This document shows, one piece after another, positions 1 through 4,850 of a stretch of 5,539 bases of DNA. Under the pieces are notes generated by a model, which was not told where the DNA came from, searched no databases, and saw only the letters and a list, made by a program, of their open reading frames with translations. The translations under genes and the position numbers were made by a program. Position 1 is the first letter of the stretch. Every line of letters starts with the position of its first letter. Origin of the DNA: a virus (Duplodnaviria; Heunggongvirae; Uroviricota; Caudoviricetes); IMG/VR virus record IMGVR_UViG_2681813263_000007; one strand, 5' to 3'.

Positions 1-2
1 TG

Positions 3-83
3 GTAGTGTCCGCTATTGCCAGTACACCTCACTCTGACGGAGAGTTTGTGGCAGTGGCTGCGGTGACCGTCAGCGCACCATAA
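3..83 (+). CDS. 3' end of an upstream gene, probably the major tail protein (gpV-like); 5' end lies outside the window
   Basis: Only frame 3 is open from the window start; it reads VVSAIASTPHSDGEFVAVAAVTVSAP and stops at TAA 81-83. The other two + frames hit stops within the first 40 nt. Assignment to a major tail protein is by position immediately upstream of G, not by recognised sequence. Confidence 0.45.
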   Translation, partial: VVSAIASTPHSDGEFVAVAAVTVSAP

Positions 84-102: not shown

Positions 103-125
103 GCCCCGGTTATCCGGGGCTTTTT
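103..125 (+). terminator. Intrinsic-terminator-like hairpin between the upstream gene and G
   Basis: Perfect 7-bp GC-rich stem GCCCCGG (103-109) / CCGGGGC (114-120) with a 4-nt loop TTAT, followed directly by TTTTT (121-125). It sits in the 58-nt gap between the upstream stop and the G start. Confidence 0.55.
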
Positions 126-141
126 GCATCCGGAGAACATG

Positions 142-528
142 ATGTTTCTGAAACAGGATACGTTTAATTATGAAAAACAGTCCGTGGTGCTCAGTGAGCT
201 GTCCGGGCTGCAGAGAATTGAATATCTGACGTTTGTTCAGCAGCGAACGGCAAAGTTTGATGCACAGGAGGGAGAACTGCCGGAGGCTGAACGACAGATT
301 GCTTTTCTGCGTATGGGAATGGATATCAATGCCTGGCTGGTTTCCCGCTCACTGTGGAATGCTGAGCAGTCTCAGGATGTTGAGACGCTTTGCGCATCCA
401 TTATGACAACATGGTCGTATGATGCGCTGGGCGCGGGGGCGGAGAGGGTTCTGTCGCTGAGCGGTATGGGGACCATTGAGAATGCCGGGGATGATGATCA
501 TGAGGCGCTGACGCCGGAAAAGTCCTGA
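142..528 (+). CDS. G: Tail assembly chaperone, lambda gpG-like
   Basis: The protein beginning MFLKQDTFNYEKQSVVLSELSGLQRIEYL resembles lambda gpG as I recall it (MFLKTESFEH...TLSELSALQRIEHL). GGAG at 132-135 lies 6 nt before ATG 142. ATG 139 and TTG 124 are in-frame alternatives with poorer spacing. Stop is TGA 526-528. Confidence 0.88.
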   Translation: MFLKQDTFNYEKQSVVLSELSGLQRIEYLTFVQQRTAKFDAQEGELPEAERQIAFLRMGMDINAWLVSRSLWNAEQSQDVETLCASIMTTWSYDALGAGAERVLSLSGMGTIENAGDDDHEALTPEKS

Positions 529-866
529 CGCGGGAAATGCAGTTTGTCATGCGGCTTGCCCGGGAGTTCCGGCGGGCAGACTGGCGGCGGATGCTGTCGG
601 ATATGTCGGCCACTGAGCTTGGTGAGTGGGGCGATTATTTCCGGATGCAGAGCTTCAGTGATGTGTGGATGGATGCGCAGTTTGCCTCGCTGAAGGCATT
701 GATCGTGAGAATGGTGTCCGGCAGCAGCGATGCTGCGGTGGCTGATTTCAGCCTTTTACCGGAAGAGAACGGGATACCGGAGCGAACGGACGAAGAACTG
801 ATGCATCTTGGGGAAGGTATTTCCGGAGGTGTGCGTTATGGACCAGATAGCCAACCTGGTCATTGA
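142..866 (+). CDS. GT: Tail assembly chaperone G-T fusion, made by a -1 programmed ribosomal frameshift near 516-522
   Basis: The -1 frame is open from 504 (just after TGA 501-503) to TGA 864-866 and overlaps the end of G. It encodes ...REFRRADWRRMLSDMSATELGEWGDYF...GGVRYGPD, which resembles lambda gpT. The T frame has no convincing independent ribosome binding site, and in lambda T is made only as the G-T fusion. Confidence 0.75.
516..522 (+). other. Candidate -1 slippery heptamer G GAA AAG for the G-T frameshift
   Basis: Zero-frame codons are GAA (517-519) and AAG (520-522); the -1 frame codons are GGA (516-518) and AAA (519-521). The site is 2 codons before the G stop, the same relative position as lambda's G GGA AAG. 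P-site re-pairing of tRNA-Glu on GGA would need a G:U pair at the middle position. Confidence 0.55.
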
Positions 867-2716
867 TTTGGGGATTGATGCGGCAGAGTTTAAAAATGAA
901 ATTCCCCGTATCAAAAACCTTCTGAATGGTGCAGCCAGCGATGCAGAACGGTCTTCTGCCCGTATGCAGCGTTTTATGGAGCGTCAGACTCAGGCGGCCC
1001 GGCAGACAATGCAGGCGGCTTCTTCGGCTGCAACAGCAGCATCAGCCCATGCGCAGACGGNNNNNNNNNNNNNNNNNNNNNNNNNNNNNNNNNNNNNNNN
1101 NNNNNNNNNNNNNNNNNNNNNNNNNNNNNNNNNNNNNNNNCCGTCTGCGCGTGGATGCCCTGAATCAGAAAATGCTCGAGGAACAGGCGCAGGCCAGGGC
1201 ACTGGCGGAGGCGCAGGATAAAGCGGCTGCCGCCTTTTATCGCCNNNNNNNNNNNNNNNNNNNNNNNNNNNNNNNNNNNNNNNNNNNNNNNNNNNNNNNN
1301 NNNNNNNNNNNNNNNNNNNNNNNNNNNNNNNNNNNNNNNNNNNNNNNNNNTGGTCAGCAGGATTATCTGGCGCTGATTTCGGAGATCACGGCGAAAACCC
1401 GTGCCCTGACGCAGGCAGAGGAACAGGCCACCCGGCAGAAAGCGGCGTTTATCCGCCAGCTTAAAGAGCAGGCAACCCGCCAGAATCTGTCGTCTTCTGA
1501 GTTGCTTCGCGCCAGGGCGGCTCAGCTGGGGGTAAGCAGTGCTGCAGAAGTGTATATCCGCAAAATGGAGCGGGCAGGAAAAGCCACACATTCGCTGGGG
1601 CTGAAAAGTGCGGCAGCCCGGCGGGAGCTGGGGGTGTTAATCAGTCAGATGGCGCGCGGCAATTTTGGTGCGCTGAGGGGATCCGGGATAACGCTGGCTA
1701 ACCGTGCCGGATGGACAGGCGCACTGATGTCGCCGAAAGGCATGATGACTGGCGGCGTTATTGGCGGACTTGTCGCGGCGGTCCTGGGTCTGGGTAAAGC
1801 CTGGCATGACGGCCGGAAGGAGGGCGAGGAATTTAACCGTCAGCTGGCGCTGACGGGACATTATGCCGGTGTCACTGTCGGGCAGTTGTGGAAACTCAGC
1901 CGGGCCATATCCGGGAATGGTATCACGCAACATGCGGCAGCCGGTGCGCTGGCACAGGTGGTGGGCAGTGGGGCATTTCATGGAAACGATATTGGTATGG
2001 TGGCGAAAGCTGCCGCACAGATGGAGCGATCGGTTGGCCAGTCGGTCAGCGATACCATAAATCAGTTTAAGCGGCTGAAGGATGATCCTGTAAATGCCGC
2101 GAAGGCGCTGGACAATGCGCTGCATTTTTTGACTGCCACTCAGCTTGAGCAGATACGCGTCCTTGGGGAGCAGGGGCGGTCCAGTGATGCGGCCCGGATC
2201 GCCATGTCTGCGCTGGCAGAGGAAACCGGTAAACGCACATCTGATATTGATAATAATCTCAATGCGCTGGGTAGTACGCTGCAAACCTTGTCTGACTGGT
2301 GGAAGCAGTTCTGGGATGCGGCCATGAATATTGGTCGTGAAGACTCGCTGGATGCGCAGATTGATGCGTTACAGGAAAAAATTCAGCGCGCGAAAAAATA
2401 TCCGTGGACAAACGCCTCCACACAGGTGGAGTACGATCAGCAGCGTCTTAACGATCTTCAGGAGAAAAAACGCCGGAAGGATTTGCAGGATGCAAAAGCG
2501 CAGGCAGAACGGAATTACCAGGAGCAACAGAAACGCCGGAATGCTGAAAATGCCGCGCTGAACCGGATGAATGAAACGGAAGCTGCACGACATCAGCGTG
2601 AAAATGAACGTTACGAAAAAGCCATTAAGAAAAATACACGGGCAACCCGTAATGATGAGGCCACCCGGTTATTGCTGCTGCCAGACAGTCAGCAGGCATT
2701 GCCACTGAAAGGATGA
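838..2716 (+). CDS. H: Tail tape measure protein (lambda gpH-like), N-terminal and central portion; contains two N-runs and ends at a frame break
   Basis: GGAGG at 825-829 lies 8 nt before ATG 838. The N-terminus MDQIANLVIDLGIDAAEFKNE resembles lambda gpH (MAEPVGDLVVDLSLDAARFDE). The start overlaps the end of T by 29 nt. Coding runs in frame 1 up to the first N-run and in frame 2 after it (RLRVDALNQKMLEEQAQARALAEAQ..., then a long alpha-helical K/R/E/Q-rich region). The central segment ...LSDWWKQFWDAAMNIGREDSLDAQIDALQEK aligns with lambda ...FKSMWDAVLDIGRPDTAQEMLIKAEAAYKK. Frame 2 ends at TGA 2714-2716. Confidence 0.85.
1061..1140. other. Run of 80 N (unresolved or masked sequence) inside the tape measure gene
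   Basis: Directly visible. The coding frame differs on the two sides (frame 1 before, frame 2 after), so the true length is not 80. Confidence 0.95.
1245..1350. other. Run of 106 N (unresolved or masked sequence) inside the tape measure gene
   Basis: Directly visible. Frame 2 is the coding frame on both sides, whereas 106 is 1 mod 3, so the true length is probably not 106. Confidence 0.95.
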
Positions 2717-3813
2717 CTGAAGCGCATAAACAGCTTCTGGCCCTGCAGCAGCGCATCAGCGACCTGGACGGGAAAAAGCTGACGGCAGATGAAAAGAGTG
2801 TGCTGACCCGTAAGAATGAGCTGATTCAGGCGCTGACGCTGCTGGATGTGAAACAGCAGGAGCTGCAGAAACAGACAGCGCTTAACGACCTGAGAAAAAA
2901 AACGGTTCAGCTGACCAGCCAGCTGGCAGACAAAGAACGTGCACTGCGTGAGCAGCACAATCTGGATATTGCCACTGCAGGTATGGGGGATAAGCAGCGG
3001 CAGCGCTACCAGGCACAGTTGCGCATCCGGCAGGAATACCGGCAACAGTTGCAACAGCTTGAGAATGACAGTCGCCAGAAAGGCACTTACGGGACGGAGG
3101 ACTACCGGAGGGCTGAGGAGGTGCTGAAGGGGAGCCTGAAGCGACAACTGAATGAAAACAAACGCTACTGGCAGGAACTGGAAGTGGCGCAGGGCGACTG
3201 GAAAAACGGTGCCATGCGGGCGTTTCAGCATTTTACGGCGGATGCGGATAATGCGGCGGGAACGGCAGAACAGATGTTTACAGTGGCATTCAGCAGTGCC
3301 GGTAATGCACTGGCGACATTCTGTACCACCGGTAAGCTGAATTTTAAATCCTTCACCTCTTCCCTGTTGTCAGATATGGCCAGAATTATGGCACAGATGG
3401 CCATGATGCAGGCGGTAAAGGGCGTCGGTTCTTTATTCGGCTTCACGACTAATGCTGATGGCGGTGTTTACCAGTCTGCTGATTTGAGTCGCTACAGTGG
3501 CACGGTGGTTAACCGTCCGACGTTTTTTGCTTTTGCAAAAGGCGCGGGTGTGATGGGGGAAGCGGGACCTGAAGCCATTCTGCCACTGCGTCGCGGTGCT
3601 GATGGTAAGCTGGGGGGTGTGGCGGATACTGGTGGTTCAGGCATGGTGATGTTTGCCCCGCAGTACAACATTGAGATCAATAACGATGGCACGAACGGGC
3701 AGATAGGTCCGGCTGCCCTGAAGGTGGTTTATGACCTCGGGAAAAAAGCGGCCGCGGACTTTATGCAACAGCAGGCCCGTGATGGTGGCCGGTTAAGTGG
3801 AGCATACCGGTAA
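2713..3813 (+). CDS. H: Tail tape measure protein (gpH-like), C-terminal portion, in frame 1; probably the same gene as 838-2716 separated by a frame break
   Basis: ATG 2713-2715 overlaps the upstream TGA (ATGA). Frame 1 is already open from 2659. The product TEAHKQLLALQQRISDL... aligns with internal lambda gpH (DSAHAALLTLQAELRTL), and the C-terminus NNDGTNGQIGPAALKVVYDLGKKAAADFMQQQARDGGRLSGAYR matches the lambda gpH C-terminus (NNDGTNGQIGPAALKAVYDMARKGARDEIQTQMRDGG...). Stop TAA 3811-3813 overlaps the M start. Confidence 0.85.
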   Translation: MTEAHKQLLALQQRISDLDGKKLTADEKSVLTRKNELIQALTLLDVKQQELQKQTALNDLRKKTVQLTSQLADKERALREQHNLDIATAGMGDKQRQRYQAQLRIRQEYRQQLQQLENDSRQKGTYGTEDYRRAEEVLKGSLKRQLNENKRYWQELEVAQGDWKNGAMRAFQHFTADADNAAGTAEQMFTVAFSSAGNALATFCTTGKLNFKSFTSSLLSDMARIMAQMAMMQAVKGVGSLFGFTTNADGGVYQSADLSRYSGTVVNRPTFFAFAKGAGVMGEAGPEAILPLRRGADGKLGGVADTGGSGMVMFAPQYNIEINNDGTNGQIGPAALKVVYDLGKKAAADFMQQQARDGGRLSGAYR

Positions 3814-4142
3814 TGGAGACGTTTCACTGGAAAGTGCGCCCGGATATGAATGTGGTATCAGAGCCGAAAGTGGTGACAGTGAAGCTGGGCGATGGTTATG
3901 AACAGCGTCGTGCGGCGGGACTGAATAACCAGTTGTCGACTTACAGCGTGACGATACGTGTTCGTAAAGGTGAACACCCATTTTTAAAAGCCTTTCTGGA
4001 ACGGCACGGTGGCGTCCGCGCATTTCAGTGGACGCCACCTTATGACTGGAAGCCGATCAGGGTGGTTTGTCGTAAATGGTCGGCAAGCGTGGGGGCGTTG
4101 TGGGTAACCATAACGGCAGATTTTGAACAGGTCGTGGCATAG
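3813..4142 (+). CDS. M: Minor tail protein M (lambda gpM-like), 109 aa
   Basis: METFHWKVRPDMNVVSEPKVVTVKLGDGYEQR...HGGVRAFQWTPPYDWKPIRVVCRKWS...ADFEQVVA resembles lambda gpM along its length and has the same size. TAATG start/stop overlap with H; GGAG at 3799-3802 upstream. Confidence 0.92.
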   Translation: METFHWKVRPDMNVVSEPKVVTVKLGDGYEQRRAAGLNNQLSTYSVTIRVRKGEHPFLKAFLERHGGVRAFQWTPPYDWKPIRVVCRKWSASVGALWVTITADFEQVVA

Positions 4143-4151
4143 GAGGCTCTG

Positions 4152-4850
4152 ATGCAGGATATTCCACAGGAAACACATCATGAGACGACACGCCTCACTC
4201 AGTCAGCCCAGGTGGTGCTCTGGGAAATCGATCTGACAGAGGTCGGTGGAGAACGTTATTTTTTCTGTAATGAGCAGAACGAAAAAGGTGAGCCGGTTAC
4301 CTGGCAGGGGCGGCAGTATCAGGCATACCCCATTCAGGGGACGGGATTTGAACTGAACGGCAAGGGCAGTGCTGCCCGTCCGACACTGACGGTTTCTAAC
4401 CTGCACGGAATGGTCACCGGGATGGCGGAAGACCTGCAGAGTCTGGTCGGCGGAACGGTGGTCAGGCGTAAGGTTTACGCCCGTTTTCTGGATGCGGTGA
4501 ACTTCGTCAACGGAAACAGCGACGCCGATCCGGAACAGGAGGTGATCAGCCGCTGGCGCATCGAGCAGTGCAGCGAACTGAGCGCGGTCAGTGCCTCTTT
4601 TGTGCTGGCCACACCAACGGAGACGGATGGCGCGGTTTTCCCGGGGCGTATCATGCTGGCGAATACCTGTATGTGGACTTACCGTTCTGATGAGTGTGGT
4701 TACACGGGCAGGGCAGTGGCTGACGAGTTCGACAAACCAACGACGGATATCCGGAAGGACAAATGCAGCAAGTGTATGCGCGGGTGTGAGTTGCGCAACA
4801 ATACCGGTAATTTCGGCGGTTTCCTTTCCATCAATAAACTTTCTCAGTAA
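4152..4850 (+). CDS. L: Minor tail protein L (lambda gpL-like), 232 aa, with a C-terminal cysteine cluster
   Basis: Closely resembles lambda gpL as I recall it (MQDI.QET...VVLWEIDLTEVGGERYFFCNEQNEKGEPVTWQGRQYQ...NFGGFLSINKLSQ). AGGAGG at 4141-4146 lies 5 nt before ATG 4152. Stop TAA 4848-4850. Confidence 0.93.
   Translation: MQDIPQETHHETTRLTQSAQVVLWEIDLTEVGGERYFFCNEQNEKGEPVTWQGRQYQAYPIQGTGFELNGKGSAARPTLTVSNLHGMVTGMAEDLQSLVGGTVVRRKVYARFLDAVNFVNGNSDADPEQEVISRWRIEQCSELSAVSASFVLATPTETDGAVFPGRIMLANTCMWTYRSDECGYTGRAVADEFDKPTTDIRKDKCSKCMRGCELRNNTGNFGGFLSINKLSQ

What the first reader, a model, noticed from the sequence alone, without database searches (positions are those of the whole stretch)
504..528. 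G-T -1 frameshift site with a non-canonical heptamer G GAA AAG
The T frame opens at 504 and overlaps the last 8 codons of G, so the shift must occur within 504-525. The only slippery-looking sequence there is GGAAAAG (516-522), two codons before the G stop. It differs from lambda's G GGA AAG in that P-site re-pairing needs a G:U pair at the middle position, while A-site tRNA-Lys slips from AAG to AAA. If it is functional, the fusion junction reads ...TPEK-SPTREMQFVMRL.... I see no obvious downstream stimulatory stem-loop by eye.
Basis: partly seen in the sequence, partly recalled or inferred. Interest (0 to 1): 0.45.

Follow-up and report, generated by a model that had tools for sequence, protein, structure and literature searches.

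The report
Known phage tail G-T frameshift site
This is the well-known programmed -1 ribosomal frameshift that joins the two tail-assembly chaperone genes (G and T) of a lambda-like prophage. Its "odd" slippery sequence G GAA AAG is the commonest version in this phage family and is already annotated as such in phage N15, so it is real but ordinary.

Summary
G (142-528) ends at TGA 526-528. The -1 (T) frame opens at 504 and runs to 866. The only in-phase slippery motif in the 22-nt overlap is G GAA AAG (516-522). One detail is wrong: the fusion junction is ...ALTPEK|VLTREMQFVMRL, not TPEK-SPTREM.

- G matches Pfam Phage_TAC_2 and T matches Phage_tail_T. Gene order is V-G-T-H-M-L-K, as in lambda.
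- I grouped 164 related loci into 41 clusters at 90% GT protein identity. The homologous heptamer is GGAAAAG in 30 clusters and lambda's GGGAAAG in only 3.
- Heptamer position 3 is the only variable position. Position 1 is G in 39/41 clusters although the codon it ends encodes seven different amino acids.
- Phage N15's GenBank record already labels its GGAAAAG as the "slippery sequence for -1 translational frameshift". Viable phages (mEp460, Ayreon, Tritos, Gifsy-1/2, Fels-1) carry the same heptamer.
- ATG 537 is not conserved (2/41 clusters).
- No conserved downstream RNA structure exists.
- An SD-like GAGG lies 10 nt upstream (502-505). SD-like cores are enriched at that spacing in 16/41 clusters, which suggests a dnaX-like stimulator; this is unproven.

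Verdict: real, functional in type, already known. In this copy the tape-measure gene is split by a 43-nt deletion, so the prophage may be defective.

The parts
1..83 (+). 3' end of the major tail (tube) protein gene, the lambda V homologue
   Evidence: The window aligns to the 'phage tail tube protein' CDS of the 99.8%-identical locus L001.
103..120 (+). Terminator-like GC hairpin followed by a T run, between V and G
   Evidence: The same site is annotated as a rho-independent terminator in phages mEp460 and Ayreon.
142..528 (+). Gene G, tail assembly chaperone (128 aa). An alternative ATG lies at 139; the stop is TGA 526-528.
   Evidence: Pfam PF06894 Phage_TAC_2, E = 2.7e-40. Annotated gpG in L001.
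501..503 (+). TGA in the -1 (T) frame. The T frame is open from 504, which sets the 5' limit of the shift window.
502..505 (+). SD-like GAGG, 10 nt upstream of the heptamer. Candidate upstream stimulator (inferred, not shown).
   Evidence: Duplex with the 16S 3' end is -5.6 kcal/mol. SD-like cores end 9-13 nt before the heptamer in 16/41 clusters, against a mean of 2.55 in control windows. GAGG is invariant in the 90 loci of the window's own clade.
516..522 (+). Slippery heptamer G GAA AAG, the site of the -1 shift (P site Glu, A site Lys)
   Evidence: N15's misc_feature 'slippery sequence for -1 translational frameshift' is the same heptamer at the homologous position.
522..866 (+). T segment read in the -1 frame after the shift (114 aa, VLTREMQ...SQPGH; stop at 864-866). 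The G-T fusion is 241 aa counted from ATG 142.
   Evidence: Pfam PF06223 Phage_tail_T, E = 4.4e-15. phrog_32165 spans both the G and T parts.
537..539 (+). ATG that RefSeq-style annotation uses as an independent T start; probably not a real start
   Evidence: ATG occurs at this column in only 2 of 41 clusters, and most have CTG. The only SD-like run, GGGA 532-535, is 1 nt from the ATG.
838..2716 (+). 5' part of tape-measure gene H. It overlaps the end of T, runs through two N-masked stretches, and is truncated here by a 43-nt deletion.

Best explanation
The site is the programmed -1 ribosomal frameshift of a lambda-like tail assembly chaperone pair.

How it most likely works:
- Most ribosomes translating G read ...CCG GAA AAG UCC UGA and terminate, giving G (128 aa).
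- A small fraction slip back one base on G GAA AAG (516-522).
- A-site tRNA-Lys (anticodon UUU, the only Lys tRNA in E. coli) moves from AAG to the cognate AAA.
- P-site tRNA-Glu moves from GAA to GGA. It keeps the first-position G:C and third-position A:U pairs and has a G:U pair in the middle.
- By analogy with lambda, the fusion links the tape-measure protein to the major tail protein during tail assembly.
- The SD-like GAGG 10 nt upstream may raise the efficiency of this weak heptamer.

Shown here: frames, homology, position, and family-wide conservation of the heptamer.
Inferred: that the shift occurs, its efficiency, the tandem (two-tRNA) nature of the slip, and the SD effect.
For: - Frames and heptamer.
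- G is PF06894 and T is PF06223, with gene order V-G-T-H-M-L-K.
- The heptamer is kept in mEp460, Ayreon, Tritos, Gifsy-1, Gifsy-2 and Fels-1 despite 68-71% DNA identity in the Salmonella phages.
- N15's record annotates GGAAAAG as the -1 slippery sequence at the aligned position.
- Tally over 41 clusters: GGAAAAG 30, GGGAAAG 3, GGTAAAG 3, GGCAAAA 2, AGAAAAG 2, GGGAAAA 1.
- Column entropy: heptamer positions 2 and 4-6 are invariant. Position 1 has 0.28 bit and position 7 has 0.38 bit. Neighbouring G-frame third positions have 1.56-1.99 bits.
- The preceding codon is GCG, CCG, CTG, AAG, TTG, ATG, ACG or GTG. It ends in G in 39/41 clusters, against 29% G at upstream third positions.
- The T-frame protein is conserved from just after the heptamer (invariant E5, F8, LARE...) in relatives with no ATG there.
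- All 90 loci of the window's clade keep GCCGGAAAAG.
- Literature: lambda shifts about 4% on GGGAAAG (PMC3296357). A_AA.G is the best tetramer in E. coli (PMC4066793). A single tRNA-Lys reads AAA and AAG (PMC6924986).
Against: - No experiment on this sequence exists.
- In a reconstituted E. coli system, G GAA AAG gave mainly 0-frame product with wild-type EF-G and was used as the 'less slippery' control (PMC6924986).
- A_AA.G tetramers without a stimulator were barely above background in vivo (PMC4066793).
- No conserved downstream stimulator was found.
- The upstream SD-like element is absent from the N15-like clade.
- In this genome copy the tape-measure gene is split, so this prophage may no longer build tails.
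- The fused GT protein is not on record in the 15-billion-protein collection.
Confidence: 0.85

Rival explanations
1. The shift is a single-tRNA slip. Only tRNA-Lys slips on the tetramer A AAG, either in the A site or in the P site while the next codon waits. tRNA-Glu re-pairing plays no real part, so the 'heptamer' is really a tetramer. The product is the same.
For: - Heptamer position 3 varies freely (A 32, G 4, T 3, C 2). G GUA AAG and G GCA AAA would give G:A or G:G mismatches in the middle of the P-site codon.
- Morganella prophages have A GAA AAG, which also loses the first-position pair.
- The two clusters with a weakened P-site position 1 (A GAA AAG) and all three with an ...AAA A-site codon have the G stop directly after the motif. 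This fits a P-site slip during slow termination.
- A_AA.G is the most shift-prone tetramer in E. coli (PMC4066793).
Against: - Position 1 is G in 39/41 clusters at a third-codon position after seven different amino acids. A pure tetramer model does not explain this.
- In the window the stop is one codon away, not adjacent.
- Tetramers without a stimulator are barely above background.
Confidence: 0.25
2. T is made on its own from ATG 537, by initiation or by termination-reinitiation after the G stop 9 nt upstream. No frameshift is needed.
For: - RefSeq and several phage records annotate T as a separate CDS starting at this ATG.
- The ATG lies 8 nt after the UGA, and a short GGGA run precedes it.
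Against: - ATG is present at this column in only 2 of 41 clusters. Most have CTG, and lambda's first in-frame ATG falls inside the invariant LARE motif.
- T-frame residues upstream of the ATG are conserved (E5 is invariant).
- GGGA is only 1 nt from the ATG.
- The heptamer would have no reason to be conserved at synonymous sites.
- In lambda the functional product is the fusion (PMC5009743).
Confidence: 0.05
3. The heptamer is a decayed lambda-type site (GGGAAAG -> GGAAAAG, G518A) in a dying prophage, and it no longer works.
For: - It differs from the lambda heptamer by one base.
- In vitro it is poorly slippery.
- The neighbouring tape-measure gene is broken in this copy.
Against: - The same heptamer is found in 30/41 family clusters across many genera.
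- It is in all 90 loci of the window's clade.
- It is in viable phages: N15, mEp460, Ayreon, Tritos, Gifsy-1/2.
- The locus is present in 1847 of 5426 complete E. coli genomes.
Confidence: 0.02
4. RNA polymerase slips on the A run (transcriptional slippage), producing a shifted mRNA.
For: There is a run of four A's in the right place.
Against: - Four A's is far shorter than known slippage tracts. Poly-A/T runs of at least 7 nt were the screening criterion in PMC3711429.
- The conserved G's flanking the run, and the fixed phase, point to tRNA re-pairing.
Confidence: 0.01

Closest known systems
Phage lambda gpG/gpGT programmed -1 frameshift (Levin, Hendrix & Casjens 1993; Xu, Hendrix & Duda 2004, 2013, 2014; cited through PMC5009743)
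   Same: - Homologous G and T proteins.
- Same gene order between the major tail gene and the tape-measure gene.
- The slip site is at the aligned position near the end of G.
- The A-site Lys slip AAG->AAA is the same.
- No conserved downstream structure in this family.
   Different: - Heptamer position 3 is A, not G. The P-site codon is GAA (Glu), and re-pairing to GGA needs a central G:U pair.
- The G stop is 1 codon after the heptamer here, against 5 codons in lambda.
- The T part is 114 aa here, against 144 aa in lambda.
Phage N15 genes 14/15 (GenBank NC_001901, misc_feature 10027..10033 'slippery sequence for -1 translational frameshift')
   Same: Identical heptamer G GAA AAG in the same phase at the homologous position, in homologous G and T genes.
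   Different: - The N15 T part is 40% identical to the window's.
- N15 has Ala (GCG), not Pro (CCG), before the heptamer.
- Its stop is 5 codons downstream.
- It has no SD-like sequence upstream.
E. coli dnaX -1 frameshift (A AAA AAG with an upstream SD-like sequence and a downstream hairpin)
   Same: - A-site tRNA-Lys slips AAG->AAA.
- An SD-like sequence lies 10 nt upstream of the slippery sequence. The optimum reported for dnaX is 10-14 nt (bioRxiv 10.1101/2020.04.16.045807; PMC6924986).
   Different: - No downstream hairpin.
- The SD-like core is only 4 nt (GAGG).
- The P-site codon is not slippery.
- The product is a longer fusion protein, not a truncated one.
Bacillus subtilis cdd -1 frameshift at CGA AAG (Mejlhede, Atkins & Neuhard 1999; title seen, mechanistic details from my own memory)
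   Same: A non-canonical site: only the AAG Lys codon is truly slippery, it lies near the end of the ORF, and (from memory) it is helped by an upstream SD-like sequence.
   Different: It is a cellular gene in a Gram-positive host, with no relation in sequence or function. I did not read that paper here.
A_AA.G tetramer frameshift motifs of IS1/IS3-family elements (Sharma et al. 2014, PMC4066793)
   Same: The same minimal motif and the same shifty tRNA-Lys(UUU).
   Different: IS elements usually pair the motif with a strong downstream hairpin or pseudoknot. None is conserved here.

Membership tests
Lambda-type tail assembly chaperone G / G-T programmed -1 frameshift | Two overlapping ORFs between the major tail protein gene and the tape-measure gene, the second in the -1 frame | tested here: met
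   V end at 1-83, G at 142-528, the -1 ORF open from 504 to 866, and H from 838.
Lambda-type tail assembly chaperone G / G-T programmed -1 frameshift | The first ORF is homologous to lambda gpG | tested here: met
   PF06894 Phage_TAC_2, E = 2.7e-40 over residues 1-119. phrog_42, E = 5e-52.
Lambda-type tail assembly chaperone G / G-T programmed -1 frameshift | The second ORF is homologous to lambda gpT and has no conserved start codon of its own | tested here: met
   PF06223 Phage_tail_T, E = 4.4e-15. It is 37% identical to lambda T. ATG occurs at the 537 column in only 2/41 clusters.
Lambda-type tail assembly chaperone G / G-T programmed -1 frameshift | A conserved slippery sequence, in the G phase, inside the overlap | tested here: met
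   G GAA AAG at 516-522. The family pattern is G G N A A A G, with only position 3 variable.
Lambda-type tail assembly chaperone G / G-T programmed -1 frameshift | A canonical X XXY YYZ heptamer (lambda: G GGA AAG) | tested here: not met
   Positions 1-3 are G, G, A. The same departure is found in 30/41 clusters and in N15's annotated site, so it does not exclude membership in the protein family or its mechanism.
Lambda-type tail assembly chaperone G / G-T programmed -1 frameshift | A G-T fusion protein is made at a few percent of G and is required for tail assembly | not testable with these tools
   This needs a reporter assay, a western blot or mass spectrometry, plus phage genetics. The exact fused sequence is not in the protein collection.
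SD-stimulated -1 frameshift sites (dnaX type) | [quoted passage not shown] | tested here: met
   GAGG at 502-505 lies 10 nt from the heptamer and 11 nt from the GAA codon. Cores are enriched at spacing 9-13 in 16/41 clusters, against a control mean of 2.55 and maximum of 10. The element is absent from the N15-like clade.
SD-stimulated -1 frameshift sites (dnaX type) | The SD-like sequence actually stimulates the shift | not testable with these tools
   There is only a codon-choice hint. GAG is used in 10 of 12 cases when the next base is G, against 8 of 18 otherwise (Fisher p = 0.058, not corrected for phylogeny).
SD-stimulated -1 frameshift sites (dnaX type) | A downstream stem-loop stimulator | tested here: not met
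   MFE z = -1.0. RNAalifold gives -1.4 kcal/mol with 0 compensatory pairs. No Rfam family matches.

The most novel reading that the evidence does not exclude
Across enterobacterial lambda-like phages the working signal may not be the textbook X XXY YYZ heptamer. It may instead be G GNA AAG. In that signal the P-site tRNA needs only its first-base G:C36 pair and the wobble pair after the slip. Lambda's canonical G GGA AAG would then be the exception.

The weaker P-site variants would be compensated in one of two ways: by an SD-like sequence about 10 nt upstream (GAGG here; GGGGAGGA with G GUA AAG in Pantoea prophages), or by a stop codon directly after the motif.

With G GAA AAG both slipping tRNAs (Glu and Lys) carry mnm5s2U34. 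The G:GT ratio of this very common E. coli prophage tail module would therefore depend doubly on the host's tRNA thiolation pathway.
Probability: 0.3. Interest if true: 0.35.

Novelty: already known. Interest (0 to 1): 0.15.

Why it matters
There is little biological novelty. The G-T frameshift is a textbook case, and the G GAA AAG variant is already annotated in phage N15.

The practical value lies in annotation. RefSeq and most phage records for this tail module list G and T as separate genes with T starting at ATG 537, and the module is present in about a third of complete E. coli genomes. The real product is most likely a 241-aa fusion with junction TPEK|VLTREM.

There is also a modest mechanistic point. 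Natural selection keeps, in most of this family, a heptamer that in-vitro work uses as a "non-slippery" control. A low-efficiency site therefore appears to be enough for tail assembly, or an unrecognised helper such as the SD-like sequence at -10 raises its efficiency.

Tried and rejected
- Downstream stimulator: folding 523-620 and RNAalifold on 41 cluster representatives found nothing conserved.
- Rfam scan of 1-1060 at E <= 1: only two chance-level hits, both far below their gathering scores.
- Literature search for 'GGAAAAG' plus 'frameshift' and for 'G GAA AAG': no phage paper. The only relevant hit was Peng et al. 2019, which uses the sequence as a poorly slippery control.
- Exact look-up of four versions of the fused GT protein in the 15-billion-protein collection: none found, so the fusion is not annotated for this clade.
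- The SD-like stimulator as a universal feature: rejected. It is missing in the N15-like clade and in lambda. I keep it only as a clade-specific possibility.
- Frame changes of the tape-measure ORF across the two N runs: rejected as artefacts of masking. The N runs are 80 and 106 nt, against 52 and 91 nt in the near-identical L001.
- The count of the bare heptamer as evidence: rejected, because 2 observed against 0.79 expected is not significant.
- I could not read Xu et al. 2004 or the N15 genome paper, so I do not know whether they discuss this heptamer in print.

Full report
**What is in the window.** The window is the tail module of a lambda-like prophage.
- Bases 1-83 are the end of the major tail (tube) gene.
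- A terminator-like hairpin follows at 103-120.
- G runs from 142 to 528.
- An overlapping -1 ORF reaches the stop at 864-866.
- The tape-measure gene starts at 838, followed by homologues of lambda M (3813-4142), L (4152-4850) and K (from 4856).
- A near-identical locus (99.8-99.9%) in E. coli CFSAN029787 (L001) is annotated in the same order.
- G matches Pfam PF06894 (lambda tail assembly chaperone G, E = 2.7e-40). The -1 ORF matches PF06223 (minor tail protein T, E = 4.4e-15). PHROG family 32165 spans both parts, so it is built from G-T fusion proteins.

**Checking the observation.**
- The G frame ends ...GCG CTG ACG CCG GAA AAG TCC TGA, with the stop at 526-528.
- The -1 frame has TGA at 501-503 and is open from 504. 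A shift must therefore happen within 504-525.
- GGAAAAG lies at 516-522 in the phase G GAA AAG. It is the only in-phase motif of the NNNAAAR or XXXYYYZ type in the overlap.
- The junction peptide is not. After the slip the next -1 codons are GTC CTG ACG CGG GAA ATG, so the fusion reads ...HEALTPEK|VLTREMQFVMRL. It does not read TPEK-SPTREM.
- The bare heptamer is not significant. It occurs twice in the window against 0.79 expected, and the second copy at 1577 is out of phase. The evidence has to come from comparison with relatives.

**Comparative evidence.**
- The 801-nt G-T region is present in 1847 of 5426 complete E. coli genomes, mostly at 95-99% identity. It is also in 17 phage records, including the isolated phages mEp460, cdtI, Ayreon and Tritos.
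- The Salmonella phages Gifsy-1, Gifsy-2 and Fels-1 are only 68-71% identical in DNA. They still keep CCGGAAAAG[T/C]CCTGA exactly.
- Phage N15's GenBank record carries a misc_feature at 10027..10033, "slippery sequence for -1 translational frameshift". Its sequence is GGAAAAG, in the phase GCG GAA AAG. In the alignment it occupies the same columns as the window's heptamer and lambda's G GGA AAG.

**Family survey.**
- Using an alignment of T proteins, I fetched 79 loci from species-representative genomes and 80 from IMG/VR.
- Together with the earlier loci, 164 had a recognisable G/T overlap. They fell into 45 clusters at 90% GT identity, or 41 after removing truncated duplicates.
- The heptamer per cluster is GGAAAAG 30, GGGAAAG 3 (lambda, an E. 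albertii prophage and an Edwardsiella prophage), GGTAAAG 3 (Pantoea), GGCAAAA 2, AGAAAAG 2 (Morganella) and GGGAAAA 1.
- The "non-canonical" heptamer is therefore the norm in this family, and lambda's is the minority form.
- The anchored alignment needs no gaps (A2). G-frame third-codon positions upstream have 1.56-1.99 bits of entropy.
- Heptamer positions 2, 4, 5 and 6 are invariant. Position 1 has 0.28 bit (G in 39/41) and position 7 has 0.38 bit. Position 3 is the only variable one (A 32, G 4, T 3, C 2).
- The codon ending in position 1 encodes Ala, Pro, Leu, Lys, Met, Thr or Val. It still ends in G in 39/41 clusters, against 29% G at the upstream third positions. The nominal binomial P is 6e-19, not corrected for shared ancestry.
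- Within the window's own clade of 90 loci, sequence just upstream is polymorphic. Positions -17 to +30 around the heptamer are fixed, apart from one C/T site and one TCC->TCA change.

**Mechanism.**
- The pattern G G N A A A G fits tRNA re-pairing. E. coli has one tRNA-Lys, which reads both AAA and AAG (PMC6924986), and A_AA.G is the most shift-prone tetramer in E. coli (PMC4066793). The A-site slip AAG->AAA is the invariant core.
- The P-site codon is always GNA, so its tRNA always has C36. A G at heptamer position 1 preserves that first-position pair after the slip.
This is my inference from the conservation pattern; it is not shown directly.
- A pure single-tRNA slip remains possible. Three observations support it: position 3 tolerates U and C, Morganella has A at position 1, and the A GAA AAG and ...AAA variants all have the G stop immediately after the motif.

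**Efficiency and possible helpers.**
- In a purified system G GAA AAG gave mainly 0-frame product and served as the "less slippery" control (PMC6924986).
- A_AA.G tetramers without a stimulator were barely above background in vivo (PMC4066793).
- Lambda shifts about 4% of the time (PMC3296357).
- I found no downstream stimulator. The fold of 523-620 has z = -1.0, and the family consensus structure is -1.4 kcal/mol with no covariation. No Rfam family matches.
- Upstream there is an SD-like GAGG at 502-505, 10 nt before the heptamer.
- SD-like four-base cores end 9-13 nt before the heptamer in 16/41 clusters, with a peak of 11 clusters at 10 nt. Same-width control windows further upstream have a mean of 2.55 and a maximum of 10.
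- The strongest case (GGGGAGGA, -11.5 kcal/mol) accompanies the weakest P-site variant, G GUA AAG.
- For dnaX the optimal SD spacing is 10-14 nt, and the effect is lost at 7 or 16 nt (bioRxiv 10.1101/2020.04.16.045807).
- Against a general role: the N15-like clade and lambda lack the element. The region encodes an acidic tail rich in GAG/GGN codons. The codon-choice test is only borderline (Fisher p = 0.058).
- I treat the SD-like sequence as a plausible, untested helper in this clade.

**Rivals.**
- Independent translation of T from ATG 537 is what most database records imply. However, that ATG exists in only 2 of 41 clusters. T-frame residues before it are conserved. Lambda's first in-frame ATG falls inside the invariant LARE motif.
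- A decayed lambda site is excluded by the heptamer's dominance across genera and its presence in viable phages.
- Transcriptional slippage on four A's is very unlikely.

**State of this copy.**
- Relative to L001 the window's tape-measure gene lacks 66 nt in frame and 43 nt out of frame, near position 2671.
- This leaves two ORFs, 838-2716 and 2713-3813, which meet at an ATGA overlap.
- None of 5426 complete E. coli genomes has this junction as one contiguous match.
- The prophage here may be defective, or the assembly may be wrong. The G-T cassette itself is intact and identical to that of functional relatives.

**Verdict.** It is nevertheless a member of a long-known system, with a heptamer variant that is already annotated in N15 and is the commonest form in the family. 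Interest is low. The only mildly new points are the family-wide G GNA AAG rule and the positional SD-like enrichment.

Noticed in passing
window 838-3813 (break near 2671-2716): The tape-measure gene H is split. Compared with the intact gene in L001, the window lacks 66 nt (in frame, near 2603) and 43 nt (out of frame, between ATTGCTGC repeats). This gives ORFs 838-2716 and 2713-3813 joined by an ATGA stop/start overlap. No complete E. coli genome has this junction as one contiguous match. It could be a defective prophage, an assembly error, or a two-piece tape measure.
   Followed up: partly
window 1061-1140 and 1245-1350: The two N runs (80 and 106 nt) replace 52 and 91 nt in the near-identical L001. 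The masks do not keep the true length, and apparent frame changes of H across them are artefacts.
   Followed up: yes
window 103-120: A 7-bp all-GC hairpin followed by TTTTT lies between the major tail gene and G. It is annotated as a rho-independent terminator in mEp460 and Ayreon. It may lower transcription of G-T-H relative to the major tail protein.
   Followed up: no
alignment A2 columns 11-12 (window 502-503): A 'GA' dinucleotide 13-14 nt upstream of the heptamer is present in 37-38 of 41 clusters, inside an otherwise very variable G tail. It could reflect a conserved Glu/Asp residue (motif E-x-[VL]-[TS]-[PA]-E-K) or the core of the SD-like element. I could not separate the two explanations.
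   Followed up: partly
loci L018, L020, L022, L023, L029, L044, L076, L077: In eight clusters the G stop codon follows the heptamer directly. These include both clusters with A at position 1 (AGAAAAG) and all three with an ...AAA A-site codon (GGCAAAA x2, GGGAAAA). Elsewhere the stop is exactly 1 or 5 codons downstream. This suggests that a stop codon can act as a compensating stimulator.
   Followed up: no
loci L061-L067, L069-L073, L081, L083-L086: Genome assemblies of unrelated organisms contain short, low-coverage contigs identical to phage lambda G-T. The organisms include Neobacillus, Oceanobacillus, Kitasatospora, Shewanella, Pseudomonas, Paenibacillus, Enterococcus, Pseudoxanthomonas and Psychrobacter. 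These are almost certainly lambda DNA contamination of the sequencing libraries.
   Followed up: no
window 537-866 and the matching database records: RefSeq (PGAP) and most phage records annotate T as a free-standing 109-aa protein starting at ATG 537. Ayreon starts it even further downstream. None of the seven close relatives I inspected has a joined G-T CDS, and the fused protein is not on record in the large protein collection.
   Followed up: partly
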